A stretch of 64,000 nucleotides of DNA from an uncultured Verrucomicrobiae bacterium (GTDB lineage Bacteria > Verrucomicrobiota > Verrucomicrobiia > Palsa-1439): contig CAWEWF010000014.1 of NCBI GenBank assembly GCA_963812605.1, positions 36,418 through 100,417 on the forward strand. Direction: 5' to 3'. The translations under genes and the position numbers were made by a program. Shown one piece after another: positions 1,535 to 57,963 of this stretch. Each line of letters begins with the position of its first letter. Within the stretch, counting starts at the first letter, position 1. Under the pieces are notes generated by a model. That model had not been told where the DNA came from. It made no database searches and saw only the letters and a program-made list of their open reading frames with translations.

Positions 1535-2200
1535 TCAGCCCATGCCGGCGTATTCTTCGTCGGTGATGATATGGCGTCCCATCAGCACGTAATCGTGCGC
1601 GAGAGCCTGCATGTCCTTGACGTAGTCGGGCAGAACCAATAACTCGCTGAATCCCAATTCAGCGAACACCAGTCGCGCAGCCTGCTGGTCGCCCAGAAAC
1701 TCGGCTTCCAGCTTCTCCAACCCAACGTCGCTCGCGATGTCGATCAACTCCTGTACCAATGTTCGCGCCAAGCCACGTCCGCGATAGCCAGGGTGGACCA
1801 CGACGCTGATCCGGCCGATATGACGCTTCCAGCCGCCGAGCTGTTGGTGGAGGGAGGCGTCGGCGACAATTTTGCCATCCGCGATGGCGAGCAAGGGCAG
1901 GATCTTCCCGTAGTCGATGCGCTGGCACCAATCACGGATGACCTCCGGTTCAGTGACGCGATGCTTGAAAAGGAGGCGTTCGTTATCGGGTACGGTGCAG
2001 AAGAATTCGTGAAAGGCCTTTTCGTCCGCCGCTACCAGCGGGCGTATGGTGACATCCAGGTCACCCTTTAGGGTCACCGCCTTCGGATAACGCTCAAGAT
2101 GATCGTCCACTTGTTGCGCTCGGCTCCTAACTTGTTCACGATACCAGATGAACCGGCCAACATCAAGCTGCGAAATTGATTCAATTCCGGCAGTGATCAC
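1535..2200 (-). CDS. GNAT family N-acetyltransferase
   Basis: 221-aa ORF. Acetyl-CoA binding motif region HPGYRGRGLARTLV (Q/RxxGxG/A) is typical of GNAT folds. Confidence 0.8.
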   Translation of the reverse strand: MITAGIESISQLDVGRFIWYREQVRSRAQQVDDHLERYPKAVTLKGDLDVTIRPLVAADEKAFHEFFCTVPDNERLLFKHRVTEPEVIRDWCQRIDYGKILPLLAIADGKIVADASLHQQLGGWKRHIGRISVVVHPGYRGRGLARTLVQELIDIASDVGLEKLEAEFLGDQQAARLVFAELGFSELLVLPDYVKDMQALAHDYVLMGRHIITDEEYAGMG

Positions 2201-3543
2201 GGGACAACCTTGACCTTGTAGTATTTCGTTGCGTCGGTGGTGTCAACGTCCGTATAGCTCGTGGTTGCGCCCGCGGAGGGCACGGTGCTGCCCACGGGCG
2301 CGTAGGCGCCGGCCAGACTCGTCGTGGCATAGACCTGATAGTTTTTCCCGGGGACGCTCGTCCACACGATGACGTTGTTGCCGTTCGGCTGACGCGTAAT
2401 GCTGATAATGTGGAAGAAGGAGCTCGACTTGGTCGGGTCGGTGCCTGTGAGGAATTCCTGGAGATTGCTCTGGCCGTCGCCATCGGGATCAGCGTTGGCG
2501 TTGATGTTCGTGGCGCCAAAGTATTTCAGTTCCCAGGCGGTCGTCAGACCGTTGGTATCCCACGGATTGAACGGATCGGCGCCCAGTTGCGCGGCCTGAT
2601 AATTCTGAATGTTGTCACCATTCGGCGCGGCGTCACCCTGGAGCGCCTTGATTTCCAGGGCGAAACTGAAGGCCGTGTTTGTGCTCTGGAGTTCGACCTG
2701 TTGGGTCTGCGCCTGGTCGCGCATGTTGACGGTGGCAAAGCCAGCGCCCCGGTCGGTAGCCGCGGCGTTGTAGGTGACATTACTGTGGGACGGGACATCG
2801 GCATAATCCAGCGCGGCTACGGCAACCGACGAGGGGCTGATGTTCTCAGCCTGGACGTGACCCGTCGAAGCGGCCAACGCCAGGTTCGCCTGGCCCTGAT
2901 ACATGAGGCTCAGCGCGTCGGGCGACAGGCCGTGGCGGACGTATAGCGTCGTCACGCCCCCGGCCAGCGCGTAGGCGGCTTCCAGCCGGTCCGAGCCGCT
3001 CCCCAACGTGATGGTCTTGGTGATATTGCCGTCGGAGCTGACGAATTGCCAGCCGTTGCTGACCTGCGTGGCGTTGTAGACATTGTTCACGTAGAGATTG
3101 GTGCCGCCGCTGTTGGAGATCGCCCACCAATCCTTGAATCCGGAAGTGCGATACGCCAAAGGTGCGGCCGGGCTACCGGTAGTGTTGCTGATCCCTTCGC
3201 GCTCGCTCTCGTATTCCGGCGTGCTGGCGAGGCTGCCGACGAGTTGATAAGCGCTGCCCGTAATCGGGTCGCGCGCGAATGCGGCGATGAGAACGTCCGC
3301 CGATGCGCTCGAACACCGCGTAGACTGCGTTGTTGTAAAGTAAGTAGTTTGGTTCGCCGGCCTGTTCAACGTCCTGGGCAACAACGACGGTATTGGACGA
3401 CGGGTTCGATCCAGCCCAGATCGCCGCGTGGGCCACGATGCTCGCCTGGCGCGTCGCGCGCGCGGCGCCCTTGAGAGCAAACTGTGAGAGCAAATCCGTC
3501 GTCGTATCGGGATAGACGTAATCGCCGGTCGAGAAGCGGGCAT
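2197..3543 (-). CDS. C-terminal segment of the giant GH13-family gene. Contains a TSP3-like repeat (DPDGDGQSNLQEFLTGTDP) and the shared ~90-aa C-terminal domain ending KYYKVKVVP.
   Basis: The first ~60 codons of the ORF are R-rich nonsense. The real sequence starts where the 3173-4192 frame degenerates. Confidence 0.6.
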   Translation of the reverse strand: MPASRPAITSIPIRRRICSHSLLSRAPRARRARRASWPTRRSGLDRTRRPIPSLLPRTLNRPANQTTYFTTTQSTRCSSASADVLIAAFARDPITGSAYQLVGSLASTPEYESEREGISNTTGSPAAPLAYRTSGFKDWWAISNSGGTNLYVNNVYNATQVSNGWQFVSSDGNITKTITLGSGSDRLEAAYALAGGVTTLYVRHGLSPDALSLMYQGQANLALAASTGHVQAENISPSSVAVAALDYADVPSHSNVTYNAAATDRGAGFATVNMRDQAQTQQVELQSTNTAFSFALEIKALQGDAAPNGDNIQNYQAAQLGADPFNPWDTNGLTTAWELKYFGATNINANADPDGDGQSNLQEFLTGTDPTKSSSFFHIISITRQPNGNNVIVWTSVPGKNYQVYATTSLAGAYAPVGSTVPSAGATTSYTDVDTTDATKYYKVKVVP

Positions 3544-4192
3544 AATTACCGTTATCCTCGTCGTGAAAAGCGGTCTCGAAGATGCCGTTGAGGTATACCA
3601 ATTCCGCGAGCCTGGTCAGGTTGGACTGCCCGGCAGCGGCGGATTGAACGTCTGTCCAGGTATCCGCGAGAATGGTGCCGTTGGTGGCGACGTGACCGAG
3701 TACTTTGGCCGCCAATACCTCACCGTTGGTGCCGAAGTAGAATTCATTACTGTTGGTATCACGAGTCGGTGCCGGCATTATCGTCACCGCGCAGGATCGG
3801 ATGCCGGTTGAAGAAGCTTTCCTCTTGTGAACTGCCGAAGTACCAATTGTTAAGGTTGGTTTCGCTGGCGTGGCGGACGAAGTCCTTCGCTTGGACATTG
3901 AAATTCGCGGAACCGCGTTGATTGATAAACGGCACATCCGAACCATTGACCGTGCCGTCGTTATTGATGTCAAGCTGCCCGGTGGCAAACTGGTCGAGGC
4001 GCACCACCTGAATCCACTGATGATTGGCCAGCCAGCGCAGGTTGAGGTTGAGGTTATCGGGATTGGAATTCCCGCCCACACCCGCTGCGGTTTCCCAGTT
4101 GTCGGCGAGAATGACAACCTGGTCCTGGACGCCATCGATCGCCTTGCGGATGAGAAGTTCGCGCAGGGTGATGCTCGCGCCGAGGTCATCAT
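3173..4192 (-). CDS. Continuation segment 3 of the frameshifted giant GH13-family gene
   Basis: The frame carries plausible protein (…NYLLYNNAVYAVFERI) until about 3300, then Arg-rich nonsense. Confidence 0.55.
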   Translation of the reverse strand: MMTSARASPCANFSSARRSMASRTRLSFSPTTGKPQRVWAGIPIPITSTSTCAGWPIISGFRWCASTSLPPGSLTSITTARSMVRMCRLSINAVPRISMSKRRTSSATPAKPTLTIGTSAVHKRKASSTGIRSCAVTIMPAPTRDTNSNEFYFGTNGEVLAAKVLGHVATNGTILADTWTDVQSAAAGQSNLTRLAELVYLNGIFETAFHDEDNGNYARFSTGDYVYPDTTTDLLSQFALKGAARATRQASIVAHAAIWAGSNPSSNTVVVAQDVEQAGEPNYLLYNNAVYAVFERIGGRSHRRIRARPDYGQRLSTRRQPRQHAGIRERARRDQQHYR

Positions 4193-5141
4193 TCTGGTAG
4201 AGCTGGTCGGACTCCCCGCTGATGAGGAAGGTGTTCATGCCGTTGAATTGATTAAGCTGGTAACCGCCGTCCTGCAATGCGGTCGGCCTTCCATTACCTG
4301 CGCCATAGAGTTGGTCGCCCCACCACCACAGGTGCACCATTTGGTCAAGGATCGCATAATTGTGGCCGCTGTTGGCGGCGAGATCAGACAATGACGGCCC
4401 GTCAGCGGCGCGCTCCGCAAGGTAAATGGGCGTGTTTGCCGTGACGCTGTTCGATCCGTAGGTGCTGCGCATAAGGTCGTCCTGCAATTGGACACCCGCG
4501 CGGTTGACGGCGCCCGTGAAATAAGGCGCCATGTGGTCCGCGAACATGCCGCTGACGAGGGACACTTGATTGGATTGAATCAGCGACGCGATGCGCTGGT
4601 TGAATTTGGCGCCGTCGACGGAGCCGTTGGTATCGGTCGTGGGATCGCTCTTGGCCCATTGCAGCGCGGAAATCAGGGAACCGCTCAAATGCAGGTTCAA
4701 CGGCAGTCCAAAGATCTGGGCCGACTCAAGCGCGCGGTAATAGCCGACAGGGTTGTTGCCGGGGTTGTACGTCGGATCGTAGCTCGTATTGGCGGCACTG
4801 CTGCTGGGGGTGCGCGTTGCGGTATTGGACACGAGATTCTGAATGAGCGTGCCCGGCAGGATCGACTGGTTCCCATGCAGCAGAATCGCAACCTTGGCGA
4901 TACCGGGCCGGCTGGTGACGGAGAGCGAAGACGAATAGGACGAGAGGTTGACGGGGCTCTGGTTGACGGATGTAAACCAATAGTGCAGCGCGTTGCCGTA
5001 ATTGTTGTTTTGGCTTTGGGTGATACCGTTGTCGTAGATCGAGTCGGTGATTCGCGTGGGATTCGAAAGCGTCGTCGGGCCGGCCGTGTCGTAGACCTGG
5101 AAGTTGAGCGGGGTGAAGCCCGACCACCCTGCGTCGAACAA
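3759..5141 (-). CDS. Continuation segment 2 of the frameshifted giant GH13-family gene
   Basis: Protein-like translation continues upstream of the annotated start in the same frame (…RGYQQSGGVQNQYWRADLDSIEFVIPRQALFDAGW…). It overlaps the 3' 445 nt of the 4697-11068 ORF. Confidence 0.6.
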   Translation of the reverse strand: MFDAGWSGFTPLNFQVYDTAGPTTLSNPTRITDSIYDNGITQSQNNNYGNALHYWFTSVNQSPVNLSSYSSSLSVTSRPGIAKVAILLHGNQSILPGTLIQNLVSNTATRTPSSSAANTSYDPTYNPGNNPVGYYRALESAQIFGLPLNLHLSGSLISALQWAKSDPTTDTNGSVDGAKFNQRIASLIQSNQVSLVSGMFADHMAPYFTGAVNRAGVQLQDDLMRSTYGSNSVTANTPIYLAERAADGPSLSDLAANSGHNYAILDQMVHLWWWGDQLYGAGNGRPTALQDGGYQLNQFNGMNTFLISGESDQLYQNDDLGASITLRELLIRKAIDGVQDQVVILADNWETAAGVGGNSNPDNLNLNLRWLANHQWIQVVRLDQFATGQLDINNDGTVNGSDVPFINQRGSANFNVQAKDFVRHASETNLNNWYFGSSQEESFFNRHPILRGDDNAGTDS

Positions 5142-8100
5142 TGCCTGTCGCGGGATGACAAATTCAATCGAGTCAAGGTCCGCGCGCCAGTATTGATTTT
5201 GGACGCCGCCGGATTGCTGATAGCCGCGGGTCTGGTAGATACCGGGACCGAGCCGGGCAGTTTTACGTACAGGTTCGCCGCATAAGAGCCGGCAACCTGA
5301 CCGTAAATGGCCGCCAGGACGTGCCAGCCCATGTCGGTCGTGGCGCCAACATTTTCGGGAAGCGTAGTCTCACCCGTGCCGGGCGAGCCGATGTTGATGG
5401 CCACATAGAGGCTGACGCGCCCGTTCTGGTCCGCGCCAAAGGTAAGGTCGTGCATGTCCACGCGGAAATAGTAATTACCGTCATTGCCACCATCGCGCGC
5501 GTAAAAGGCCACGAGGTCGCGGCTCCAGTCGAAACCGTCGTAGATTGGGTAAATGGTATGGTTGTTCACGTTCGGGCCGATTCCATCGTACGGGCGCACC
5601 ACCTTCAGGTCATTGACGCTCCAGCCCTGGAATTCCGTAAACCACGTATTGCCGGCCGTGCTGCCAATCGTTGCCCCCGAACCGACAATCAACGAACCGG
5701 CATTGACAGCCACGCCATTGCTGTAAAACAGGGTCGGATCCAGTCCATTCAGGAACTTCGTGATGTTCGAGATGCCGTCACCTCGGGGATTGCCCGCCGC
5801 GCCATTCAGGTTCGTGGTGATCAAGGCGCCGGTGTGCCAGTTGGTGTGACCAATGACACCATCGTCCCACGGGTCGAGTCCGTAACGTGTCTTCCAACCA
5901 TCCGGCAGGCCGTTCGGGTCGCCATCGGTGTGCGCATCCATTGGATCCGTTTCGAGAAGTACGGCGTTCGGATACTGTTGAATGAGAGCCTTTCGATTCA
6001 CCCGCGACGTGAGGGGCCAGTAGAGAATGGTGGGCGGCAGTGGAGTGGACAAAACGTTGGTGACGCAGGCGGTGACGTTGCTCACGCACGGACAACCGCA
6101 ACTGGAGGCGTTGTAACCAATGTTGCGGTTGAGCAGGCCGATCTTCAGGAAGCCGGTGCCGCTGGCATTCTCCGCGCCGTCCGGGATGCCATCGCCATCA
6201 GTGTCGGGATTGTTCGGGTCGGTCTCCAACCAGACAGCAGCGGGCCAGACCTGGAGGACTTTCGTGCGGTCGATCATCGAAGTGTTATAGATGGTTGGCG
6301 GGTGGGCGATGACCACGATGCTGGTCGTAATCGCGGTGCCGTTGGGGATCGAGAGGCCACCCATGTTCGGGTACTGCCATGAGGTGCCGTAACCCGCGAT
6401 GACCAGAGAGCCGTTGGCGTTCGAGAGTGTGACCGTGTCGTACGTCAGGCCGGCGATGCCATTGGTGCTGGTCAGCGGGGTGCCGGTGGAATTTGTCAGT
6501 GTGATGTCCACGCGACCGTTGTGATTCATGTCTTCAACGGCGTCGCGCAGACCGTCCGCATCGGTGTCGGGTGTGCTGGGGTTTAACACCGTTCCAGCGA
6601 TCTGGTCGGTGCGCGGGTTGTTGTAGTTGAACGGCCACGGCACGTAGCCTTGATAGCCCGCGGGGGCAGTCGAGTTGTCGAGCGTGTTGTAGAGCGGCGG
6701 ATCCAGGCTCGCGATGAAATTTCGGGTCCCGCAATTCGGATCGAGTCCGGTAACCGTGTTGGTGGCGGCAGGTAGGGGACCGATGCCGAGTTTCAAGCCA
6801 TCCGGTAATCCATTCGGATCGCCATCGCTGTGAGCGCTATTCGGATCGGTCTTGCCGGAGAAGAAATAGACGTGGACATCACTATTCTTCCACGTATCTG
6901 GATTGGTACTGGGCAGCGGCTGGGCGGTGGTCTCCAGGTAATCGCTGATGCCGTCGTTGTCGCTGTCGTCGCTGTTGGGATTGGTCGGCACGATTGGACG
7001 GAAGGCAACGTCAACACTCCGGAACGTCGTATTGGAGCCGCCGCCGAATACATCCGCGCGGATGAGCCAGGCGCCCGCGACCATGTTCGTCCAGTTGAAA
7101 TTCCACAACAACGCGGTGCCGACGTTCGTGGACAACTGCGCGGGACCACCTTGGAACCCGTTGGTGGTGGGCATGAAACTGACCAGGACATTGGTGACGC
7201 TGGTGCTGGTCTGCACGGTGATGGTGTACGCATCATTCGTCGGCGCGGCGCCGCCACCGCACGTGCCGAAGACAATCGTGTCCGGCGGAACGTTCTTGCT
7301 GGGATCAACCGCGGGCGGTTGGAGAATACTTGCCGAAACGCCCGTCAGCGAGACGTTCACGATGCGGGAGGCATAGAGGCTCACAGCGCCGTCGTCATAA
7401 AGGAATTCAATCAGGTGCTGGCCCGCGCTCATGCCGCTCCAGTCGTAACGCAGGTCACGGGTGCCATTGCCGCAGAAACTTCCTTGGAAAAGATACAGCG
7501 GAGTATTGGTGGGAGAGGTCCGCGGCTGCACCGAGCCGTCGATTCGGATGGTGAAATTGGTCGGAACCGCGCTCAGGGAACTGCTGAAGCAGGCGACAAT
7601 CTCGTAGAAGCTATTTTGATCGAGCGAGACCGTGTCGCCGTTATTGACCGGGAAGGCGATATTCAGGACCTGTGACGGCGCGGCGCAGTTTACCTGTCGT
7701 GTCAGGGTTGTGTAGTGGTTCGTATACAGCGTCGAGGAGGCGTCCTTGAGGCGGACGGTGATCGTTGCCGGGCCGCTGCTCGGGATGCCGACATAGTTGA
7801 AGCGAAACTCATGGGGCAGGTTCGGATATTGCAGGCCGATAGATGGCAATGGCGAGACTTCCGTGGCCACGGCCCAGGAAGGCGCGCCGTTGGTGCCGTT
7901 CCCATTTCCGTTAAGCTGGCCGGTCGCCGAATCGTCGTTATTTGCGCTATTGTCGTCAATGTGATAATCGACCTCGGTCGTCGTGTCCTGCGCCCGCACC
8001 ACCACGCCGTAGGTCTGGCTTCCCAGTGTATCGCCATCATTCGTCGGAAAGGCAATAACCCCGCTTGGCGTCTGCGGCGCGTAGTAGAAAGATTGCAGGA

Positions 8101-11068
8101 ACGTGTTGAACACGCTGGCCTGGCCACTGCGCGGCAGGAATGTTCGCAGCCGCAACATGTGGAAACCGGCATCCAGACCGACCTGCGTGCTGTTCGTGTT
8201 CAGGTCGTTGTGCAACCACACGAGCGCGGTGGCGGGATTGAAATTGGTAATGGCAAATTGTGTAAGGCCGTAGAGCTTGGCTGTGTCCGCGTCCGAAATC
8301 GGCGTGCCGACATTGCCATTGTACATGGCGATCTTGTACGTGACCGTGCCCGAGCCCTGGGCGGGAATTATCCCGTACCACCAATCATAAGTGCCGTCGG
8401 CGCCGCTGCTCGTATGGCTAAATTGCAAGGGTATGATCTGCGTGGTCGTGCCATGCTTGGCAACGCCGAACGATCCCTCGGGCGCGGTGCCGTCGGTTGT
8501 GTAGTAAATGTTGCCCGTGGTGGTGTTGAATTGGTAACCGACCTTTACCCAATTGGTCACCGCCTGTCCGCCGGCAATGGGTGAACGCATGGCGAGGCCC
8601 TGATCCGTCGTATCGAGCGGATTGTGGTACACCCATGCGGCCGTTGAAGTGTTGACATTGACACCGCTGCCAAACGTGACCGTCGCGGAGCCGCCGATGG
8701 TGTAGGTGTATGTCTCCGCGCCCAGCGAAACCACGACGTTGCGGGAGATATTTGTAGCGGCAAATTTTTCGGGACCGTAGCGGAACTGGAACATGGCCTG
8801 TTCGTAGCCGAGGTACAGGTCATTGGTGTAACCGGGACGGTTGTCGCGCAGGTCCAGCATCGTACCCGTGAATTGGTTTAGCGGCCCGAAACCCATCTGG
8901 CTGTTGAGGTCGACGCCGCCATCGAGCTTGACCAACATGTTTTGCGTCGAGGCGTCGGCGCGCAACACCAGGTTTATCGGGCCGGAATTCGTGATGATCG
9001 GCACGTCAATCGCATAGGTGAGGTTGGAAACATTCGTGCCGCCGATGATGTTACCGGTTTGATCGATGCTGCCCCGCATTTGAAAGGGGTAGGACGGATT
9101 CCATCCGGTGTCACCATCGGGTCCGTCGGTGCGTAGCGTGGTCATCCGTGGCGCGTCCTGGCCGCCCTGCTGAATGGTGATCGCGTCCTTGAGTCCGGCC
9201 CGACTGGCCTGGGGACCTTGATACGCGTAAATAACGTACCCACCGCTGGGGACGACCAATTCAACCGCACCGCCATTGGCTGGAATGCTTTGCGAGCCTA
9301 CATAGACAGTGGCGCCGTTGCTGGCCACGGCCACGCTCCGGCTATTGGTCGCCGGCCGAACGGTGATCTGACTGAAGGCGCGATTGGCGCCAGGCCCGGA
9401 AGCCGCCAACTGGTAAAGCACCGAGCCGACCGGGAAATCCACCGCCAATCCCTGGGCATCACCGTTTGCGCCGGGGGGAATTGGGTCGCTGCCCGGCCAG
9501 GAGTCATTGATACCGTCCAAAAACGCTATGTCACCGGGAAAGTTAAGGTCGTCATTCATTACGAACAGCGACACCACCTGCGAAGACTGGCTGCTGCCCT
9601 CGCGGTAATCGTAGCGCTCAAACGCAACGGTATACTGATCGCTCCACCGCGGGATGGTGCCGCCGCGCGCTTCCTGGTTGTGGAGGTAGGCGACCTCGGG
9701 CATTTTATTGTCACCGAATTCGCCCAGGAATGGCGCATACGCAATCGCCGGAAATGCCCCGCCGCATTGCGCGCAATTCGCCGATTCATAGTAGCCATCG
9801 CTGTAGAGCGAGGGCAGGCCCTCACGCATGAAAAAGTAGGCCATGAGCACCGCGCGTTGCGCCGTGAAGACGACACCCGGGTCATGTGTGCCCACAAACA
9901 TCTCGCGGTCAAAGGAGCTGAATCCCCCGGCGTCGCGCCCATCGTAGCCGGACAAGCTGTTGCCGTTCGGGTTGCCCAAAATGTTGTTGATGTTGTTGTG
10001 CAGGTTGATGTCTTCCAATCGCATGCCGCGATTGTAGTAATCATCAAAACTCGGCGGCTCCCCGAGGTGTTCGCCAAAGATGATCGCGTCATTGCGCACC
10101 GCTTCGGTGTCGTACGCGCTGTTGCGATTGTCGTCCGGCTCATTGTAGCCGCTGATCGGGTTGTTGTAGCCGTAGCCGTGGACGTAATCGAACATGGTCT
10201 GGATCGCGCCGTTGTAACCGTTGGGCGTGGAGCTGAGGTAGTCGCCGAAGAAAAAGCTCGGCACATGTTTCACCGCGTCCAGGCGAAATCCATCGCATTT
10301 CGTTTGATCCAGTTCCCACAAGACCGCGCGAATTTCGTAGGATGCGGTGTCTTCCGCCACCGGCACGCCGTTGGTCCCGTTGAACGGGTGCCAGACGGTC
10401 GGGCCGGATTGCCCCTGGATCGGCGCGAGGGTGAAATCGGGGTAATACTCCGGATGGGTGGGTTGACGCACAAATATCAACTTTGGATTGGTGCTGCCGT
10501 CAATCGAACCGAAGTTTGCATTCGGGCTTTCCTGCGACAGATCGATCAAATCCGAGAAGCCATGGTTCTGGATTTGGAAGACGTCATTCCAATCGCTGAT
10601 GTTTGGCCACTTGCGGTAAAAGCCATCGGGCGTGGTCTGCAAGTGGAAGTCCTCGGGCAAGAGGCCGGGATAAATCGTAATCGGTGTGTTCGCATCATAC
10701 CCGGGCACACTGTAGCCACGGTGGTTCATGACATTGTCGAGATACACGCGAATGCCAAAACGGTGCGCGACGCGGACCACGTGGATCAATTCCTCCTTCG
10801 TGCCGTAGCGGGTGGGAATCGTGCCATTCTGGTCCTGGTCGCCGAGGTCAAAGGGATCGAAGATGTCATAACCGGCCGAGAACTGGCTGGTGGCCTTGGT
10901 CGGCGGGGGCAGCCACAAGGCCGTGTATCCCGCCTCCGCAATTTCTGGCATCTTGTCTGCAATCTGGTTCCAGGTGAGATTATACAATTGAAGCATCGCC
11001 TCGGCGTGAACCGGCGCTGAAGACGCCACGCAGAGGAAAAGGATCGCGAGTAAGGTTCGGAGCTTCAT
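4697..11068 (-). CDS. GH13 alpha-amylase family giant secreted protein, N-terminal 2,000-aa segment: signal peptide MKLRTLLAILFLCVASSAPVHA, GH13 core with region II GFRLDAVKHV, beta-sandwich repeats, DxDxDG thrombospondin-type-3-like Ca-binding repeats
   Basis: ORF track plus motif reading. The last ~150 codons (ISNPAASKINTGARTLTRLNLSSRDRH...) are out-of-frame read-through. Confidence 0.85.
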   Translation of the reverse strand: MKLRTLLAILFLCVASSAPVHAEAMLQLYNLTWNQIADKMPEIAEAGYTALWLPPPTKATSQFSAGYDIFDPFDLGDQDQNGTIPTRYGTKEELIHVVRVAHRFGIRVYLDNVMNHRGYSVPGYDANTPITIYPGLLPEDFHLQTTPDGFYRKWPNISDWNDVFQIQNHGFSDLIDLSQESPNANFGSIDGSTNPKLIFVRQPTHPEYYPDFTLAPIQGQSGPTVWHPFNGTNGVPVAEDTASYEIRAVLWELDQTKCDGFRLDAVKHVPSFFFGDYLSSTPNGYNGAIQTMFDYVHGYGYNNPISGYNEPDDNRNSAYDTEAVRNDAIIFGEHLGEPPSFDDYYNRGMRLEDINLHNNINNILGNPNGNSLSGYDGRDAGGFSSFDREMFVGTHDPGVVFTAQRAVLMAYFFMREGLPSLYSDGYYESANCAQCGGAFPAIAYAPFLGEFGDNKMPEVAYLHNQEARGGTIPRWSDQYTVAFERYDYREGSSQSSQVVSLFVMNDDLNFPGDIAFLDGINDSWPGSDPIPPGANGDAQGLAVDFPVGSVLYQLAASGPGANRAFSQITVRPATNSRSVAVASNGATVYVGSQSIPANGGAVELVVPSGGYVIYAYQGPQASRAGLKDAITIQQGGQDAPRMTTLRTDGPDGDTGWNPSYPFQMRGSIDQTGNIIGGTNVSNLTYAIDVPIITNSGPINLVLRADASTQNMLVKLDGGVDLNSQMGFGPLNQFTGTMLDLRDNRPGYTNDLYLGYEQAMFQFRYGPEKFAATNISRNVVVSLGAETYTYTIGGSATVTFGSGVNVNTSTAAWVYHNPLDTTDQGLAMRSPIAGGQAVTNWVKVGYQFNTTTGNIYYTTDGTAPEGSFGVAKHGTTTQIIPLQFSHTSSGADGTYDWWYGIIPAQGSGTVTYKIAMYNGNVGTPISDADTAKLYGLTQFAITNFNPATALVWLHNDLNTNSTQVGLDAGFHMLRLRTFLPRSGQASVFNTFLQSFYYAPQTPSGVIAFPTNDGDTLGSQTYGVVVRAQDTTTEVDYHIDDNSANNDDSATGQLNGNGNGTNGAPSWAVATEVSPLPSIGLQYPNLPHEFRFNYVGIPSSGPATITVRLKDASSTLYTNHYTTLTRQVNCAAPSQVLNIAFPVNNGDTVSLDQNSFYEIVACFSSSLSAVPTNFTIRIDGSVQPRTSPTNTPLYLFQGSFCGNGTRDLRYDWSGMSAGQHLIEFLYDDGAVSLYASRIVNVSLTGVSASILQPPAVDPSKNVPPDTIVFGTCGGGAAPTNDAYTITVQTSTSVTNVLVSFMPTTNGFQGGPAQLSTNVGTALLWNFNWTNMVAGAWLIRADVFGGGSNTTFRSVDVAFRPIVPTNPNSDDSDNDGISDYLETTAQPLPSTNPDTWKNSDVHVYFFSGKTDPNSAHSDGDPNGLPDGLKLGIGPLPAATNTVTGLDPNCGTRNFIASLDPPLYNTLDNSTAPAGYQGYVPWPFNYNNPRTDQIAGTVLNPSTPDTDADGLRDAVEDMNHNGRVDITLTNSTGTPLTSTNGIAGLTYDTVTLSNANGSLVIAGYGTSWQYPNMGGLSIPNGTAITTSIVVIAHPPTIYNTSMIDRTKVLQVWPAAVWLETDPNNPDTDGDGIPDGAENASGTGFLKIGLLNRNIGYNASSCGCPCVSNVTACVTNVLSTPLPPTILYWPLTSRVNRKALIQQYPNAVLLETDPMDAHTDGDPNGLPDGWKTRYGLDPWDDGVIGHTNWHTGALITTNLNGAAGNPRGDGISNITKFLNGLDPTLFYSNGVAVNAGSLIVGSGATIGSTAGNTWFTEFQGWSVNDLKVVRPYDGIGPNVNNHTIYPIYDGFDWSRDLVAFYARDGGNDGNYYFRVDMHDLTFGADQNGRVSLYVAINIGSPGTGETTLPENVGATTDMGWHVLAAIYGQVAGSYAANLYVKLPGSVPVSTRPAAISNPAASKINTGARTLTRLNLSSRDRHCSTQGGRASPRSTSRSTTRPARRRFRIPRESPTRSTTTVSPKAKTTITATRCTIGLHPSTRAPSTSRPIRLRSPSPAGPVSPRLRFCCMGTSRSCRARSFRISCPIPQRAPPAAVPPIRATIRRTTPATTLSAITARLSRPRSLDCR

Positions 11069-11413
11069 CCAGAAATTCCGTCAGGGGGCCGAAAGGTCGC
11101 TCGCGCTGCCCAATTCCTGTTGTTCATTTGCGGAGGTCCCGAAATCATCGCGGCGCGGCGTGAACGAAAACGAACCAGCCGCCTCAGGTCTGAGGTAAGC
11201 TTGCCACGTGCCTCGGAAACCCGTCGTGGGGCGATAAGGTCGCATCTGCTAAATCGCTTTACACCCGGCGCAAACCACCAGCGAACATTGACCGCAGTTT
11301 TTGGAAACGTCACCCTGTTGAAACACCGCTATAAGTAGCAAGTTTTGCCAACGATTTCAAGTTAAAACTGGCCTGGAACTGCGCTTGTCCGTGCTGGCCG
11401 AAAGGCCCTGTTT

Positions 11414-12427
11414 TCAGGGCAAAAGACGTACGCGATAATATCGTTGGGACACATTGGTTGCCGACGCATCCGGGTAGGACAGCCAGATCTGTCCTGCAGC
11501 GGCGGTCACCTGCGCATTGGGCAAATTCGTCCACCCTCCGCCAAACGAATCACACGCCATCACTTGATACGTCTTCCCGGGTACGGAGGCCCAGGTGATG
11601 ACGAATCCGCCAACGTCGGATGGCTGAACGGCTTGAATGACAAAGCCCTTGCTGGGATCGAGCCGGTCGTACACCCCGTCCCCGTCGTTGTCGATGAGCG
11701 CGGGAATCGAGAGGAAAAGGAATTCGTTGCTTTCGATATTGCCATTGGGGGTGACGGCCGGGGGCCCCTGCGCGACCAGCGCGCCGCCGTTGGTCGTCGA
11801 ATACGCCGCGGCGCAAACGTAGATGTTGGATGGCATGGAGCCGAACGCTTGCACGAGATTGATCGTGCCTTCCATCAAGCCCGCATTGGTCGCCGCCTTG
11901 AAAGCCTGGTTCGACGCCGTCGTCTGCTGCCAGCCGACGTACGTATTGATGCTCTCGCCGCCGAGAAAGGGTTTTGTCGAGAGCACTGCATTTTGACCGA
12001 CCTTGTTCCAAGTGGGGAAGGCGGGTTGCATTGTCGGCGAGAGCTGGTCGGTCACGATGATGAAGTGATCGTTGACGCCATTGTTGTTGCTGCCCGGTGA
12101 CCAGGTGGCGACGTAGAGCATGGGCCCGCGCACGGCCGCATAGAGGATCATCGGCGACCCGGGCGGAGTTTGCAGATAATTGGTCGAATCCGCGACCCCA
12201 TCCATGATGAATGGCGGATAACTGCCGGCCGGTGGCAGAGTCTGCGTCGTGCCGCAACCGGGCGCCGATTGCGCCGACGCGCCGATGCCATTGGTTGCGG
12301 AGATCGTGTAGCAGTATTGTGTCCGGCTTGTAACCCGCCATCCGTATAGCCCGCTCCGTTTGCCGTCCCGATGGGCACGCCGCCACGGTAAACGATGTAC
12401 CCCGTCGCGCCACTCGACCCGGCCCAC
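11414..12427 (-). CDS. C-terminal segment of the frameshifted GH57-like/FN3 gene. Second FN3-like region (TQYCYTISATNGIGASAQS), TSP3-like LIDNDGDGVYDRLDP, and the shared C-terminal domain ending QRYYRVRLLP.
   Basis: The first ~25 codons are nonsense, and the real protein starts where the upstream ORF degenerates, so there is one frameshift near 12.3-12.4 kb. Confidence 0.6.
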   Translation of the reverse strand: MGRVEWRDGVHRLPWRRAHRDGKRSGLYGWRVTSRTQYCYTISATNGIGASAQSAPGCGTTQTLPPAGSYPPFIMDGVADSTNYLQTPPGSPMILYAAVRGPMLYVATWSPGSNNNGVNDHFIIVTDQLSPTMQPAFPTWNKVGQNAVLSTKPFLGGESINTYVGWQQTTASNQAFKAATNAGLMEGTINLVQAFGSMPSNIYVCAAAYSTTNGGALVAQGPPAVTPNGNIESNEFLFLSIPALIDNDGDGVYDRLDPSKGFVIQAVQPSDVGGFVITWASVPGKTYQVMACDSFGGGWTNLPNAQVTAAAGQIWLSYPDASATNVSQRYYRVRLLP

Positions 12428-14601
12428 GTCACGTTGATTTGGTTGGTTGCGACGCCGCTAGCGGAGACATTGGTGGGGGGCGATGGCGCGGCGGGCGGAG
12501 CGCCCGCATTGGGCGCGACGTACACGTGCTGGATAGGGGAGTTGTAAGTGTTGCCCCGGCTATCCGTTGCGCTCACGTAATAGTCGACGTATGTGTCCGA
12601 AAGACCTGTGATCTTCGCGTAGTAATAATCGGCCAGGTACTTCGGCGGCAGCAGCGTGTTTTGCGCCGCCACGGAGCGTTGTGTCATCGGTTGGAGAACC
12701 CACGGAGCGGTGTCCGCGCCGCCCGCGTAGGTCTTGAATTCATCCTGGGTGGGTGGCCGATTATTGCCGTTGGCGCGATAGAGCAGCGTTACGTTGGTGA
12801 TGCCCGAGACGTCATACGCGTAGGTCCAGACCCAAAAATCGGTATTACTGGGAACGTAAACACTGGAGGAGTATTCGACGCCAAAATTTGTGGTCCCAGG
12901 ATTCCACGGGTTGCGTTGCGGAAGGAAAACCGTGGGTGGGGTTGCGTCCAGGCTTTCGTTGCCCAAGAGGATGGGATCGACATTGCGCACGGCATTGGAC
13001 TGTGCGATCACCGGCCGCCAGCACTCGTCCGCCGTGCAGCCGAAGTACACAAAACCGCTGTCGAGGCCACCCAAATAATAATGCCAGCCGAGTTCGACCG
13101 CGTTTGCCGTCTGGCTGAAGCTGCCCGGGTCGCGAATCTGGTCAATGCGATTGGTGTACAGGCCACCGGAGAGGGAGTTGGTGATTTGCTGTGCGGTCTT
13201 GACACGATTCTCGGTGGCGATGTACGTGCGCCAGACGTCGCCCTTGTCGGTGACGCCGCGGCTCGGGTCAACAACGTTATGCGGGGTGGTATTGGTGGAA
13301 TAGCTTGGCGGCCAATTCCAGCCCACGAAGGTCGGGGATCCGAAATCGTTGGCGCCCTGGTTATAGACCCAGCCGCCATCTTCCACGTGCACGATGTCGC
13401 TGGTGCTGGGGGGAAAATCTGACAGGAATTGCTCAATCGTGGTGGGATCGAAACCCTGGCCGGACGCGTCATTGGCAAACTGGTCCGCCCAACTCGCCCA
13501 GTAGGAATTCCCGTCCGCCCAGGCGTTGTCGCCATCATGGGCCAGCAGGAGAATCGAAGGTTTGCTCGGGTCGTTGCGCGAGGAGATCGGGTTGATCAGG
13601 CTGCCCGAACCGGTGTCAGTCCACGTCCCGGCGCTGTCGGCCCAACCCAGGACCTGGTCGGCGGGAACAACGATGAGGGTCGATGCGACGCCCGTGGTCG
13701 GGTCGACATAGCGCGCGTAATGGGTCTGGAAGGCAAACGGAGCCACCGCCGTCGGCGAACAACCGAGCGATGTGTAGCCGCGTGTAATGTAATTGCCGGC
13801 GCCCTGGGCCGGATTGATCTGGTCGGCTTTATTGGGCAGGTCGCAGGCTTCGCCGGCCTGGCCGAGTCCCGCCAACACGAAGTCCGAACAGGAACGCGTC
13901 AAATGATTGTTCGCCACAACACTCCAGGCGATTCCCAGTTTGTTCAGGGTGGGGATGATGTGTTCGCTGAAGCACGTCTCCGCCGGGAAATATCCGCGAG
14001 AACCCACGCCCCAAAAAATCTGCTGCTGGCGTTGATGAATCAGGATGTCCATCTCCAACGTTTCATCGCTCACCAGCGGGGCGATGCAATGATGATACGT
14101 GAAGTTGGTCAGGTCCATGCGCGGTTTGCCGCCGGAAGTTGTCCAACCGTGCGCTTGCTGGTTGTAAGTGTACCAGGTCGAGCCATAGTACTGGCCCGCT
14201 TGCGCCAGGCTTTGTACGTTCTCCATCAACGCACCGGAAAAGTTCAGTTGTCCGCCGGCATTGGGGAGACTTAAAATGCCGCCGATCGCGTCGTGGGGAT
14301 AATTCTGGTAGTCCTGAATCCGGTTGGCGTCGCCAAACACGCCGGGCAGGCTGGTGTCACTGGGATGAGTAAACCCGTTGTTGTCGAGTTGCATTGTGTC
14401 CCAGGCATTTTGATAGTGATCGCCGGCATGGTTGGCGGGGGCGCGGTCCGGCCAGTAAATTGGCTGGTGCATATGCCAAAGCCAACTGGTGTGGAGGTTG
14501 GTATTTGCGGAAGTGATCAGGCAGGTGGTTTGCAGGAGAACACCAATCCAAATCAAAGCACGGCCCTTCGAGGTCTTCATCCATCCCGACTTGGGGTTCA
14601 T
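12148..14601 (-). CDS. Secreted glycoside hydrolase, GH57-like (motifs WHMHQPIYW and LLLAHDGDNAW), followed by an FN3-like domain. The 3' end (last ~50 codons) is out-of-frame; the gene continues in 11414-12427.
   Basis: Signal peptide. HQP and HDGD motifs resemble GH57 conserved regions I and IV; family assignment is by memory, not a search. FN3-like segment NVSASGVATNQINVTWAGSSGATGYIVYRGG. Confidence 0.65.
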   Translation of the reverse strand: MNPKSGWMKTSKGRALIWIGVLLQTTCLITSANTNLHTSWLWHMHQPIYWPDRAPANHAGDHYQNAWDTMQLDNNGFTHPSDTSLPGVFGDANRIQDYQNYPHDAIGGILSLPNAGGQLNFSGALMENVQSLAQAGQYYGSTWYTYNQQAHGWTTSGGKPRMDLTNFTYHHCIAPLVSDETLEMDILIHQRQQQIFWGVGSRGYFPAETCFSEHIIPTLNKLGIAWSVVANNHLTRSCSDFVLAGLGQAGEACDLPNKADQINPAQGAGNYITRGYTSLGCSPTAVAPFAFQTHYARYVDPTTGVASTLIVVPADQVLGWADSAGTWTDTGSGSLINPISSRNDPSKPSILLLAHDGDNAWADGNSYWASWADQFANDASGQGFDPTTIEQFLSDFPPSTSDIVHVEDGGWVYNQGANDFGSPTFVGWNWPPSYSTNTTPHNVVDPSRGVTDKGDVWRTYIATENRVKTAQQITNSLSGGLYTNRIDQIRDPGSFSQTANAVELGWHYYLGGLDSGFVYFGCTADECWRPVIAQSNAVRNVDPILLGNESLDATPPTVFLPQRNPWNPGTTNFGVEYSSSVYVPSNTDFWVWTYAYDVSGITNVTLLYRANGNNRPPTQDEFKTYAGGADTAPWVLQPMTQRSVAAQNTLLPPKYLADYYYAKITGLSDTYVDYYVSATDSRGNTYNSPIQHVYVAPNAGAPPAAPSPPTNVSASGVATNQINVTWAGSSGATGYIVYRGGVPIGTANGAGYTDGGLQAGHNTATRSPQPMASARRRNRRPVAARRRLCHRPAVIRHSSWMGSRIRPIICKLRPGRR

Positions 14602-33366: not shown

Positions 33367-33990
33367 ATGAGAACTGCGACGAAGTCGATTCTGATGGCGG
33401 GGGCATGTCTGGTGCTTGTGGGGATGACCGATCTGGCCGCAACAAACACAATCCAAATATACAACTTTAATTTCGGCACGCCACCGTCCACCCATATTGA
33501 TCCGGTCATCACCGTCGGCGACACGGTTACGTGGGTCTGGACAAATGGCACTCACAGCACCACGGCGGCGCCCGGACAACTGGAGAGTTGGGACTCCGGT
33601 GTGCAGTCAACGGGAGCGACATTCAGCCATACGTTTACCCAACTGGGCACGTTCAACTACTACTGCATGATTCACGGCACCTCTACGGGTTGCCGGGGTG
33701 TCGGCGCGATGTCGGGAAAGGTCATCGTGACGCTGCCCAACACGGCGCCGTATCCGATCACCGGAATTGTGGCGCAAGGCAGTGACATCAGCGTCACCTG
33801 GGTCACGGGCGGTATTTGCCAAACCAATATCTTACAGCGTTCGACCGGTGCGCCCGACGGCAGTTACACGAACACTTTCACGGATATTTTCACCGTGTCC
33901 GGTGCCACTGGCAACACCACCAACTACCTCGATGTCGGCGCGGTCACCAATTTTCCGTTTTCCTACTACCGCATACACATACCGCAGTAG
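33367..33990 (+). CDS. Secreted cupredoxin (plastocyanin/azurin-like type-1 copper protein) fused to the shared ~90-aa C-terminal domain
   Basis: Signal peptide. Cu ligand pattern H…C-x2-H-x4-M in THSTT … YYCMIHGTSTGCRGVGAMSGKV. C-terminal …FPFSYYRIHIPQ. Confidence 0.65.
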   Translation: MRTATKSILMAGACLVLVGMTDLAATNTIQIYNFNFGTPPSTHIDPVITVGDTVTWVWTNGTHSTTAAPGQLESWDSGVQSTGATFSHTFTQLGTFNYYCMIHGTSTGCRGVGAMSGKVIVTLPNTAPYPITGIVAQGSDISVTWVTGGICQTNILQRSTGAPDGSYTNTFTDIFTVSGATGNTTNYLDVGAVTNFPFSYYRIHIPQ

Positions 33991-56469: not shown

Positions 56470-57963
56470 CTACGGCACCAGCACGCGAACGCGGTAGTAG
56501 CGCGACGGTTTATTCGTCGCCCCGCCCAGATCCACCATATTGGTAAGGGTGCCAAGCCCCACACCGCCCATGAGGACGTTCGTCACGCCAGTGCTTGCGA
56601 AGTTGTTACTGTTGTAGCTGCCGTTGGCCGTGCCCACAGTGAACTCCAGCACGTTGGTGCGGCTCCCCAACGGTGGCATGCGGCTGCTATCGCCGCTGGC
56701 TCCCAGGTAACTCACAAAGACGTTCGTGCCGCCGTTCGTCGCAGCGATGCTAATGATGTGAACGTATGCCGCAGCATTGGTGGGATTGAATCCCGCCAGG
56801 AACTGGTTGGTGTTGCTCATCCCTTTGCCAAACGGATCCGCGCCCGGTCCACTGAATGCTGGATTGGTCAGTTCACCGGACGTGAAATACTGGTTCTGCC
56901 AGACTGCAAATGGATCCGTCCCCAGCGGCTGAAACGCGGCATCATCAAAATACACGGATCCACTGCTGTACGCGACGTTCTTGAACAGTAAGGTATACCG
57001 GGATAACATCGTGTTCGGGGGTGCGGTGGCAGTCAATACCAGTTGTGTGTACACATTCAGCGTTAGATTGTTCTGGTTGACGTCGACCTCCTGCGCAGCC
57101 AGCAGACCATTGGTCGTGTCCTCAAACTCAATTTTCAAGGTCGCGGCATTGTTGGTGCCGATAGGGTCGGATGACAGGCTCTGTACCCACGCCGTTGCCA
57201 TCCAGGCCTGTCCCGCCGTCGCGAGGACATCCTGATACGCGCCGGAGTAGTTCGGGTCGGCATTGAATCCGCCAAACATCTTGAGGTCCTGCGTTCCGGT
57301 GTGTGAATTGCCCGAGTTACGCAGAACATTGGGGATGACGTTATTGAAGAAAACCCAGTTGAGGGCATTTGTATCTCCGAACTCAAAACCTGGATTCTCC
57401 AATTGCGTCGATGCAAACTCCGCATCATCAAAATACACGGAACCGCTGTTGAATGCGACGTTCTTAAACACTAAGGCATACCGGGCATACATCGTGTTCG
57501 GGGGTGCGGTGGCAGTCAATACCAGTTGTGTGTATACATTCAGCGTTAGATTGTTCTGGTTGACGTCGACCTCCTGCGCAGCCAGGAAACCGTTGGTCGC
57601 GTCATGAAACTCAATTTTCAAGGTCGCGATATTGTTGGTGCCCATAGGGTCGGATGACAGGCTCTTGACGAACACCGTTGCCTTCCACGTGTCTCCCGCC
57701 GTCGCGAGGACGTCCTGATACGCGCCGGAGTAGTTCGGGTCAGCGTTGAATCCGCCAAACACCTTGAGGTCCTCCGTTCCGGTGCGGGAATTGCCAAAGT
57801 CACGCTGAACATTGGGGATGACGTTATTGAAGAAAACCCAGTAAGAGGCATTTGAATCTCCGTACTCAAAGCTTGCGTTCTGGAGTTGGGCCGGGCTCGA
57901 TGTTGCGAAAGCGGCGTACACGAGAAGACCAAAACCGTAGCCAATCCACTTGCTGTGCGAATT
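56470..57963 (-). CDS. Secreted protein with two tandem CBM_4_9-like carbohydrate-binding modules and the shared C-terminal domain (…[12 protein letters not shown])
   Basis: Signal peptide [26 protein letters not shown]. Two ~153-aa modules about 80% identical. Shared C-terminal domain. Confidence 0.75.
56941..57873. repeat. Tandem direct duplication, 2 x ~470 bp, inside the CBM gene; copies include >100-bp identical stretches
   Basis: For example, ccgggataacatcgtgttcgggggtgcggtggcagtcaataccagttgtgtgta… occurs at ~57000 and ~57480. Confidence 0.8.

What the first reader, a model, noticed from the sequence alone, without database searches (positions are those of the whole stretch)
2197..2480. 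A shared ~90-aa C-terminal domain ending YYR[VI]R[LV]xP on five unrelated secreted proteins: candidate sorting/anchoring signal
The same C-terminal module recurs at the extreme C-terminus of the giant GH13 protein (…KYYKVKVVP, 2197-2480), the GH57-like/FN3 protein (…QRYYRVRLLP, 11414-11700), the cupredoxin (…FSYYRIHIPQ, 33700-33990), the PATR adhesin (…ARYYRIRLVP, 51450-51743) and the tandem-CBM protein (…[11 protein letters not shown], 56470-56780). Its pattern is roughly F-x-I-x-SI…N-x-V-L-TW-x-(S/T)V-x-G-x-(T/N)YQV … G-x-Y … T-x-D-x-GA(T/V)N … YYRVRL-x-P. In three of the five it is preceded by a thrombospondin-type-3-like DxDxDG Ca-binding repeat. Its position and carrier diversity mirror PEP-CTERM or T9SS CTD sorting domains, yet it is distinct from the PEP-CTERM signal also present in this window (61761-62417).
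Basis: seen in the sequence. Interest (0 to 1): 0.6.

Follow-up and report, generated by a model that had tools for sequence, protein, structure and literature searches.

The report
Conserved C-terminal FN3-like tail domain
Five unrelated secreted proteins in this soil Verrucomicrobia fragment end in the same ~80-residue fibronectin-III-like domain that stops exactly at ...RYYRVRLVP; thousands of relatives in metagenomes do the same, which marks it as an uncatalogued candidate tag for sorting or docking proteins at the cell surface, although no function has been shown.

Summary
An HMM built only from database sequences finds all five window copies, each ending at the stop codon (E 1e-32 to 2e-5), and no sixth copy. 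The family is large: 5,532 clusters at 50% identity with E<=1e-3. It was seen almost only in uncultured soil and peat Verrucomicrobiia MAGs. No Pfam or NCBIfam model covers it.

It is positionally locked. 145 of the 148 best representatives, and 142 of 147 genomic ORFs, carry it at the extreme C-terminus. The distance from YY to the C-terminus is 8 or 9 residues in 256 of 264 tails, and the last residue is Pro in 95%.

Carriers have signal peptides and diverse passengers: GH13, GH57, cupredoxin, PATR, CBM, pectate lyases. Adjacent paralogues carry either this domain or PEP-CTERM on the same passenger.

It is not a T9SS CTD, not a tripartite sortase-type signal and not a dockerin. No partner machinery was found, and a few proteins carry internal copies.

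Best reading (about 0.5): a shared surface-targeting or docking module. Function is inferred, not shown. Two of the five carrier genes are frame-broken in this assembly.

The parts
2200..2418 (-). Copy 1 of the C-terminal FN3-like domain (divergent subtype, ...TKYYKVKVVP); stop codon at 2197-2199
2428..2490 (-). TSP3-type DPDGDG Ca-binding-like repeat directly upstream of copy 1
   Evidence: TSP3_bac residues 352-372, weak (E 0.24). The sequence DPDGDGQSNLQEFLTGTDP is seen.
2197..11068 (-). Carrier 1: GH13-like giant gene with a signal peptide, read in four different frames in this assembly (frame changes near 5300, 3800 and 3400)
   Evidence: Alpha-amylase, E 2e-12. GC3 frame plot. N-terminus MKLRTLLAILFLCVASSAPVHAEA. 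L063 is an intact homologue that ends in the domain.
11417..11644 (-). Copy 2 of the domain (...QRYYRVRLLP); stop codon at 11414-11416
   Evidence: E 1.2e-8, residues 272-347 of 347.
11414..14601 (-). Carrier 2: GH57-like protein with a signal peptide and a canonical FN3, split into two overlapping frames (12148-14625 and 11414-12457)
   Evidence: Glyco_hydro_57, E 6e-7; frames; signal peptide; canonical FN3 end ...YCYTISATNGIGASAQSAP.
33748..33987 (+). Copy 3 of the domain (...FSYYRIHIPQ), on a 207-aa cupredoxin with a signal peptide (gene 33367-33990)
   Evidence: E 7.6e-28. Copper-bind and halocyanin matches in residues 38-106.
51492..51740 (+). Copy 4 of the domain (...ARYYRIRLVP), on a 667-aa beta-helix/PATR-like adhesin (gene 49740-51743)
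   Evidence: E 1.1e-32. AF2 pLDDT 84.9, core above 90.
51399..51464 (+). TSP3_bac repeat (DPDGDGYSNMQEYLAGSDP) upstream of copy 4
   Evidence: TSP3_bac E 2.3e-10, two stretches, best at residues 554-575.
56473..56766 (-). Copy 5 of the domain (...[11 protein letters not shown], with an insertion after strand B), on the tandem CBM-like protein (gene 56470-58035), preceded by a degenerate TSP3 repeat
   Evidence: E 5.6e-31, residues 442-539 of 539.
61761..62417 (-). Comparator, not part of the family: a PEP-CTERM protein whose CBM-like passenger weakly resembles carrier 5
   Evidence: PEP-CTERM, E 4e-5; 29% identity over 152 aa to the 56470-58089 ORF, E 8e-5.

Best explanation
Shown: the module is a lineage-specific offshoot of the bacterial fibronectin type III domain. 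It keeps strands A, B, C, C', E and F, and the polypeptide ends two to three residues after strand F. The consensus tail is N-Y-L-D-x-G-G-A-T-N-x-P-A-R-Y-Y-R-V-R-L-V-P-COOH. The FG loop and G strand of a normal FN3 are absent. It is usually preceded by a TSP3-type DxDGDG repeat. It sits at the extreme C-terminus of dozens of Sec-exported proteins per genome, with unrelated passengers (glycoside hydrolases, pectate lyases, a cupredoxin, beta-helix adhesins, CBM proteins), in uncultured soil and peat Verrucomicrobiia.

Inferred: it is a shared address or docking module. After Sec export, one common partner at the outer membrane or cell surface recognises the conserved E-F loop (GGATNxP) and the free C-terminal F strand. 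This may occur by beta-strand augmentation, filling the slot of the missing G strand. The partner then either passes the cargo outward or holds it on the surface. In this reading it fills the architectural slot that PEP-CTERM fills on paralogous proteins of the same genomes. It would work like a T9SS CTD or a dockerin without belonging to either family. Whether it is cleaved off is unknown.
For: Family reality and size:
- 281 word-indexed hits.
- 5,532, 2,098 and 641 representatives at E<=1e-3, 1e-10 and 1e-30.
- 373 confirmed stretches in GTDB genomes; the best 80 come from 23 assemblies, 22 of them titled Verrucomicrobia.

Positional lock:
- 116 of 132 domain hits end at the very C-terminus.
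- 145 of 148 representatives and 142 of 147 genomic ORFs have a terminal copy.
- 138 of 159 domain matches in those loci (a looser hit set) end exactly at the stop codon.
- YY to the C-terminus is 8 or 9 residues in 256 of 264 tails; the last residue is Pro in 251 of 264.

Conserved polar and loop residues beyond a fold core: T, N, G, F, T-N-x-x-D, A-T-N and R-Y-Y-R-V-R are at least 90% conserved across 121 sequences.

Many copies per genome, clustered: up to 5 carriers per 20-kb locus, and at least 17 in the sampled parts of one MAG.

Exported, diverse carriers.

Swap with PEP-CTERM on homologous passengers:
- The adjacent L017 genes are 31% identical over about 330 aa (E 1e-40), and similarity stops where PEP-CTERM or the domain starts.
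- L024 versus L038: 56% identity.
- A weaker case lies inside the window.

FN3 homology and the missing G strand:
- hhalign probability 91%, E 9e-7; domain columns 4-81 of 83 align to FN3 columns 18-85 of 106.
- The AF2 model of the flagged copy has six strands; the model of copy 4 has five main strands plus short bridges.
Against: - No experiment bears on function.
- No candidate partner was found. The window's other genes are unrelated housekeeping, mobile-element and signalling genes.
- Clustering the ORFs of 73 loci gave no recurrent non-carrier neighbour. Most apparent clusters are antisense shadow ORFs.
- Pilin-like genes adjoin only 5 of 145 carriers.
- Real internal copies exist (P0121 has three, followed by PKD or TSP3 modules). 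The domain therefore folds and is tolerated away from a free C-terminus, which is unusual for a cleaved sorting signal.
- The YRVR part of the tail is also the F-strand consensus of ordinary FN3 domains in the same proteins (YWYRVRA), so part of the 'motif' is inherited fold sequence.
- The tail statistics come from top-scoring hits and are biased towards the consensus.
- The open-edge and strand-complementation idea rests on alignment and secondary structure only. No model coordinates could be inspected.
Confidence: 0.5

Rival explanations
1. Substrate- or glycan-binding module: the truncated FN3 acts like a CBM or lectin. It holds enzymes and adhesins on plant or microbial polysaccharide, or on the cell's own capsule, rather than being recognised by a sorting machine.
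For: Many carriers are polysaccharide-active (GH13, GH57, pectate lyase, RGL11, pectinesterase, apiosidase). The closest structures are FN3 modules of multi-modular glycoside hydrolases (5g56, 3mpc, GH3 enzymes). Internal and tandem copies occur, as with CBMs. The conserved Asn/Thr/Asp/Tyr residues are typical sugar-binding chemistry.
Against: CBMs and accessory FN3 modules are not confined to the last residue of a protein, whereas this domain is terminal in 97-98% of carriers with a fixed end. Carriers include a cupredoxin and beta-helix adhesins with no obvious need for one common polysaccharide ligand. The swap with PEP-CTERM points to a cell-envelope role.
Confidence: 0.2
2. Passive structural module: a TSP3+FN3 cassette that spread by duplication and recombination within one lineage. 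It serves only as a stabilising C-terminal cap or spacer. The conservation reflects recent common ancestry rather than a shared partner.
For: The fold is generic FN3. The family was seen essentially in one clade of MAGs. The cassette is often accompanied by the same TSP3 repeat (37 of 61 carriers). YRVR is ordinary F-strand sequence.
Against: Copies within one window are only 21-41% identical overall, yet keep the loop and tail residues. Neutral shuffling would not always place the cassette last or fix the stop codon 8-9 residues after YY in 97% of cases. Ordinary FN3 domains in the same proteins are internal and keep their G strand.
Confidence: 0.2
3. It is a divergent type IX secretion system CTD, and these bacteria have a T9SS.
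For: Same logic of use: a folded beta-sandwich of about 80 aa at the extreme C-terminus of many Sec-exported hydrolases and adhesins.
Confidence: 0.03
4. The repeated tail is a chance similarity or a low-complexity artefact.
For: None beyond the Thr/Asn/Gly-rich composition.
Against: Independent HMM E-values down to 1e-32, thousands of homologues and confident AF2 folds.
Confidence: 0

Closest known systems
Bacterial fibronectin type III modules of multi-modular glycoside hydrolases (e.g. PDB 3mpc Fn3-like protein and the Fn3 module of CtXyl5A, 5g56, both Clostridium thermocellum)
   Different: The chain stops after strand F, with no FG loop or G strand. The position is fixed at the protein's C-terminus. 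There is an extra conserved GGATNxP loop and a terminal LVP. It is not detected by Pfam fn3 at E<=1.
Type IX secretion C-terminal domain (T9SS CTD, NCBIfam TIGR04183 / Pfam Por_Secre_tail)
   Same: A folded beta-sandwich of similar size, at the extreme C-terminus, on many unrelated Sec-exported hydrolases and adhesins per genome.
   Different: No sequence or close structural match. Different phylum. Occasional internal copies. No T9SS genes were seen, though they were not searched genome-wide.
PEP-CTERM / exosortase sorting signal (and other tripartite signals: LPXTG, GlyGly-CTERM, MYXO-CTERM)
   Same: C-terminal, many copies per genome, on otherwise unrelated exported proteins. These are the criteria listed in bioRxiv 10.1101/2023.06.07.544157. 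It occupies the same slot on paralogous passengers.
   Different: It has no signature motif, transmembrane helix or Arg cluster. It is a soluble folded domain of about 80 aa, so it cannot be a substrate of an intramembrane or membrane-embedded sortase in the same way. PEP-CTERM proteins co-exist as a separate class.
Dockerin module of cellulosomal enzymes
   Same: A mostly C-terminal (occasionally internal) small module on many polysaccharide-degrading enzymes, adjacent to Ca-binding-type DxDxDG repeats. It would explain the tolerance of internal copies.
   Different: A different fold: a beta sandwich rather than a duplicated Ca-binding helix-loop-helix. No dockerin family was among the matches returned. 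No cohesin-like scaffold was identified.
Chaperone-usher pilins (Ig fold lacking its last strand, completed by a donor strand)
   Same: An Ig-like sandwich that lacks the final G strand. This leaves an edge that a partner strand could fill.
   Different: Purely an analogy. No chaperone or usher genes and no N-terminal donor extension were seen, and the AF2 models are confident without a donor strand. Complementation was not tested.

Membership tests
Fibronectin type III (FN3) superfamily | Detectable homology to FN3 profiles | tested here: met
   hhalign against canonical FN3 domains taken from the same carrier proteins: probability 91.4%, E 9e-7. Pfam's fn3 HMM itself gives no hit at E<=1.
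Fibronectin type III (FN3) superfamily | FN3-type beta-sandwich fold | tested here: met
Fibronectin type III (FN3) superfamily | Complete seven-strand topology including the FG loop and G strand | tested here: not met
   The alignment ends at FN3 column 85 of 106. The xNxxGxSxYSNxAxAxT segment has no counterpart. The model of the flagged copy has six strands.
T9SS C-terminal sorting domain | Match to TIGR04183 / Por_Secre_tail-type models | tested here: not met
   No such hit at E<=1 for the 5 carriers or for 28 isolated domains.
T9SS C-terminal sorting domain | Extreme C-terminal location on Sec-exported cargo | tested here: met
   Signal peptides seen by inspection.
T9SS C-terminal sorting domain | Host encodes T9SS components (PorV, PorU, SprA and others) | not tested
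   Only 64 kb plus 73 loci were held, and no whole-genome search was possible. The hosts are Verrucomicrobiia, outside the known T9SS range by established knowledge.
PEP-CTERM / tripartite sortase-type signals | Signature motif, then a transmembrane helix, then a basic cluster at the C-terminus (definition in bioRxiv 10.1101/2023.06.07.544157) | tested here: not met
   The tail ...GGATNKPARYYRVRLVP has no hydrophobic helix and no PEP motif. The Pfam PEP-CTERM model hits only the separate protein at 61761-62417.
Dockerin | Duplicated Ca-binding loop-helix motif (Pfam Dockerin_1) | tested here: not met
   No dockerin hit in the five carriers or in 28 cores. The predicted fold is all-beta.
Bacterial TSP3 repeat (accompanying element, not the domain itself) | DxDxDG-type repeat matching PF18884 | tested here: met
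   Copy 4 E 2.3e-10; copy 1 weak at E 0.24. 37 of 61 carriers from the database. Absent from the cupredoxin carrier.
Generic C-terminal protein-sorting domain (operational criteria) | Near the C-terminus, many per genome, on otherwise unrelated proteins, co-occurring with a cognate processing or transport protein | tested here: inconclusive
   The first three criteria are met. The fourth could not be tested. Neighbourhood analysis found nothing.

The most novel reading that the evidence does not exclude
The domain is the cargo tag of an undescribed protein-sorting or surface-docking system of soil Verrucomicrobiia, a functional analogue of the T9SS CTD or of dockerin-cohesin. In this reading a G-strand-less FN3 is recognised through its free C-terminal F strand, possibly by strand complementation from an outer-membrane or scaffold partner. 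It would address a whole secretome of polysaccharide-degrading enzymes and adhesins.
Probability: 0.35. Interest if true: 0.85.

Novelty: new variant of a known kind. Interest (0 to 1): 0.6.

Why it matters
Verrucomicrobiia are abundant polysaccharide degraders in soil and peat. How they export and display their large enzymes and adhesins is poorly understood: they lack the T9SS of Bacteroidota, and only PEP-CTERM/exosortase has been proposed.

This domain is uncatalogued, very abundant and locked to the C-terminus, so it gives a concrete handle. Its HMM can define the putative surface or secreted proteome of these uncultured lineages. Phylogenetic profiling with it could reveal the cognate machinery.

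The 'FN3 that stops after strand F' architecture suggests a testable recognition mechanism. Even if it proves to be only a binding module, it deserves a family model, because thousands of proteins currently carry it unannotated.

Tried and rejected
- A single-sequence search with copy 2 returned only one hit, because of the word index. A profile of the divergent subtype worked better.
- The afdb50 fold library was unavailable. Foldseek against PDB gave nothing below E 0.05.
- Searching for a partner by clustering all ORFs >=150 aa of the 73 loci failed. The large non-carrier clusters are antisense shadow ORFs of the carriers. The next clusters (a large multi-pass membrane protein not annotated further, an MFS-type transporter, a DUF1559 pilin-like protein) occur in only 6-8 loci and may reflect synteny.
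- A link to N-methyl pilin-like genes was suggested by the gene at 55611-56564, next to carrier 5. It was rejected because only 5 of 145 carriers have such a neighbour.
- Source annotations say only 'hypothetical protein'.
- Full-text searches for the motif strings, and for Verrucomicrobia with sorting, T9SS or exosortase, found no description of this domain.
- Homopolymer indels as the cause of the frame breaks: no homopolymer >=5 lies at four of the five junction regions, so the cause is unresolved.
- Membership in T9SS CTD, PEP-CTERM and dockerin was considered and rejected (see the membership table).
- I first read the exposed Arg-Tyr face of the last strand as a specific basic binding stripe. 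I dropped this because ordinary FN3 domains in the same proteins have the same YRVR pattern.
Full report

Yes. Translating the five ORF ends shows the same module directly before each stop codon. A regex scan of every six-frame ORF of at least 60 aa for an aromatic-aromatic-basic-x-basic tail returns exactly those five.

To avoid circularity I built an HMM from database hits only and searched all 1,185 window ORFs. The five copies score E = 1.1e-32 (ending 51740), 5.6e-31 (56473), 7.6e-28 (33987), 1.2e-8 (11417) and 1.8e-5 (2200). Each lies at the very end of its ORF, and nothing else scores below E = 1. The flagged copy (2197-2480) is the most divergent.

The TSP3 remark holds for copies 1, 2 and 4. 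Copy 5 has a degenerate repeat and the cupredoxin has none.

Two corrections to the carrier descriptions:
- The 'giant GH13 protein' changes coding frame three times, near 5300, 3800 and 3400.
- The 'GH57-like/FN3 protein' is split into two overlapping frames.

A LacI gene is split in the same way. The window matches ENA assembly ERZ25039605, contig_134252. Four of the five junction regions contain no homopolymer of 5 or more bases, so I cannot say whether these are assembly errors or pseudogenes. An intact GH13-like carrier exists in a related MAG (L063).

**2. How big is the family, and where does it occur?**

- A profile of the five copies found 281 proteins through the word-indexed search. 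The top hits all end ...GGATNKPARYYRVRLVP.
- An exhaustive HMM search of 1.84 billion cluster representatives gave 5,532 hits at E<=1e-3, 2,098 at 1e-10 and 641 at 1e-30. The weak end probably includes ordinary FN3 domains.
- A scan of one genome per GTDB species gave 373 confirmed stretches. The best 80 lie in 23 assemblies. All but one are titled Verrucomicrobia, from soil and peat (palsa, SPRUCE, SMAG and MFD series). The exception is titled Acidimicrobiales and is probably mis-binned.
- The 73 loci hold 153 ORFs with the domain, up to five per 20 kb. One MAG has at least 17 in the roughly 140 kb sampled.
- A profile of the divergent subtype (window copies 1 and 2) reveals a wider superfamily of C-terminal tails such as ...QRFYRVSSP...RFYRLQSNW and ...QRFYRVRLGP.

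**3. Positional constraint**

- Of the 148 best representatives, 145 have a copy ending within 3 residues of the C-terminus.
- Of 147 genomic ORFs with a strong full-length copy, 142 have it at the stop codon. In a looser hit set from the same loci, 138 of 159 domain matches end exactly at the stop.
- In 264 of 268 database proteins the tail could be anchored on YY. The distance to the C-terminus is 8 residues in 210 and 9 in 46, and the last residue is Pro in 251.
- These figures come from top-scoring hits, so they lean towards the consensus.

The lock is not absolute. Twenty representatives also have upstream copies, about twelve of them strong. P0121 has three copies, followed by PKD or TSP3 modules. 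Five genomic ORFs have only an internal copy, usually with an altered tail.

**4. What is the domain?**

No Pfam or NCBIfam model covers it. This was tested on the five full carriers and on 28 isolated domains at E<=1.

AlphaFold2 gives confident beta-sandwich models:
- Copy 4: pLDDT 84.9, core above 90.
- The flagged copy: pLDDT 90.9, with exactly six strands.

- Foldseek finds nothing significant, and no T9SS CTD appears among the hits listed.

The only faint PDB sequence match is also 3mpc. It aligns TNYxDxGATN..RYYRV with FN3 strands E and F.

I then took 19 canonical FN3 domains from the same carrier proteins (consensus ...VTxYxDxGxxxxTTYWYRVRAxNxxGxSxYSNxAxAxT) and compared profiles. hhalign gives probability 91.4% and E 9e-7. 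Domain columns 4-81 of 83 align to FN3 columns 18-85 of 106.

So the domain is an FN3 that ends at the end of strand F. RYYRVRL corresponds to YWYRVRA, and the FG loop and G strand are missing. The features specific to this family are the GGATNxP loop, the TN and GxYxNNF motifs, the terminal LVP and the truncation itself.

**5. Carriers and context**

All five window carriers begin with Sec-type signal peptides, judged by inspection. A crude hydrophobicity check is consistent with this for the database carriers: of the 108 whose sequence starts with Met, 69 have a hydrophobic stretch near the N-terminus.

Passengers are diverse. The window has GH13, GH57, a cupredoxin, a beta-helix/PATR adhesin and tandem CBM-like modules. 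The database adds pectate lyase, RG lyase, pectinesterase, apiosidase, PKD, RCC1, LamG, canonical FN3 and a sedolisin. TSP3_bac occurs in 37 of 61 carriers.

The rest of the window is unrelated: GNAT, GT4, M29 peptidase, malic enzyme, radical SAM, SPFH proteins, ClpX-like AAA, a CLC channel, ABC exporters, a TIR-response regulator with a kinase, transposases, an integrase and a DUF1559 pilin-like gene. No recurrent neighbour emerged from the 73 loci.

**6. A 'choice of anchor' observation**

The same loci contain 20 PEP-CTERM proteins. In L017, two adjacent genes share a passenger of about 330 aa, signal peptide included (31% identity, E 1e-40). The alignment stops exactly where one protein continues with IPEPSTALLTMSGLFGVATMMRRRRR and the other with the FN3-like domain.

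A second pair shows the same pattern: a PEP-CTERM protein in L024 is 56% identical to the N-terminus of a carrier in L038. Inside the window, the PEP-CTERM protein at 61761-62417 weakly resembles the CBM modules of carrier 5.

The domain therefore occupies the slot that an accepted sorting signal occupies on homologous proteins. This rests on few examples and is suggestive only.

**7. Mechanism**

Shown:
- A truncated FN3 family.
- A C-terminal lock.
- Many copies per genome.
- Exported, diverse carriers.
- Conserved loop and tail residues.
- Co-existence and exchange with PEP-CTERM.

Inferred (about 0.5): a common partner at the outer membrane or cell surface recognises the domain, and either exports or retains the cargo. 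The missing G strand leaves strand F, carrying the free C-terminus, as an open sheet edge. Beta-augmentation by a partner is an attractive but untested way to read it. I had no model coordinates with which to check exposure.

The internal copies argue against an obligatorily cleaved signal. They favour a docking or retention module, dockerin-like in logic.

Rivals: a glycan-binding FN3 (0.2), a passive structural cassette (0.2), a divergent T9SS CTD (0.03) and chance (0).

**8. Comparison with known systems**

- It is a member of the FN3 superfamily by homology and fold, but it fails the complete seven-strand topology.
- It is not a T9SS CTD: there is no model match, no close structural match, and the phylum is wrong.
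- It is not a tripartite sortase-type signal as defined in bioRxiv 10.1101/2023.06.07.544157.
- It is not a dockerin.

It meets three of the four operational criteria for a sorting domain. The fourth, a co-occurring machinery, could not be tested with the tools and caps available.

**9. Novelty and verdict**

The fold is known. The family, its truncation and its positional lock are not described in Pfam (2025), in NCBIfam (June 2026) or in the searchable literature. I rate it a new variant of a known kind, with interest 0.6. There is a 0.35 chance that it marks a genuinely new sorting or docking system, which would deserve about 0.85.

Noticed in passing
window 2197-11080, 11414-14625, 58425-59574: Several genes are broken into overlapping ORFs in different frames: the giant GH13 gene (3 shifts), the GH57-like gene (1) and a LacI regulator (HTH and ligand-binding halves split). 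Four of the five junction regions have no homopolymer >=5. A sister assembly shows the same pattern: a 161-aa ORF holding only the tail domain starts 26 nt after a sedolisin gene (L076). Assembly indels or real pseudogenes: unresolved.
   Followed up: partly
window 42948-43835 (-) and 44214-44984 (-): A response-regulator receiver domain is fused to a CAP12/Pycsar-type TIR effector domain (E 5e-32), next to a histidine kinase. This looks like a two-component system wired to a TIR effector, possibly defence-related.
   Followed up: no
window 25726-26715, 46874-47842, 48666-49613: An IS200-like Y1 transposase, a tyrosine integrase and a DDE transposase (matching only the C-terminal half of its profile) are present. 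The last two lie just upstream of the PATR-like carrier gene, which suggests a mobile or rearranged region.
   Followed up: no
window 55611-56564 (-): An N-methyl/DUF1559 pseudopilin-like gene lies directly downstream of, and overlaps, the tandem-CBM carrier. Across related loci such adjacency is rare (5 of 145 carriers), so it is probably coincidental.
   Followed up: yes
loci L004 14765-15487, L026 3292-5313, L029 2-733, L034 6886-7227; proteins P0272-P0311: There is a wider superfamily of C-terminal FN3-like tails with other fixed endings (...QRFYRVSSP...RFYRLQSNW...QRFYRVRLGP...NRFYKIKSAY). Each subtype has its own conserved last residues. The main HMM does not detect them.
   Followed up: partly
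L017 7836-8930 and 9056-10252: Adjacent paralogues share an uncharacterised passenger domain of about 330 aa. One ends in PEP-CTERM and the other in the FN3-like tail. The passenger family itself has no annotation.
   Followed up: partly
L001 (CAWIWK010000058.1): The best genomic match (72% identity to copy 4) sits in a MAG titled Acidimicrobiales, while all other hits are Verrucomicrobia. The contig is probably mis-binned.
   Followed up: no
window 29168-32810 (+): Two long SPFH/Band-7 proteins flank a small gene that the source annotation assigns to the 23S rRNA-intervening-sequence protein family (PF05635). The cupredoxin carrier lies just downstream.
   Followed up: no
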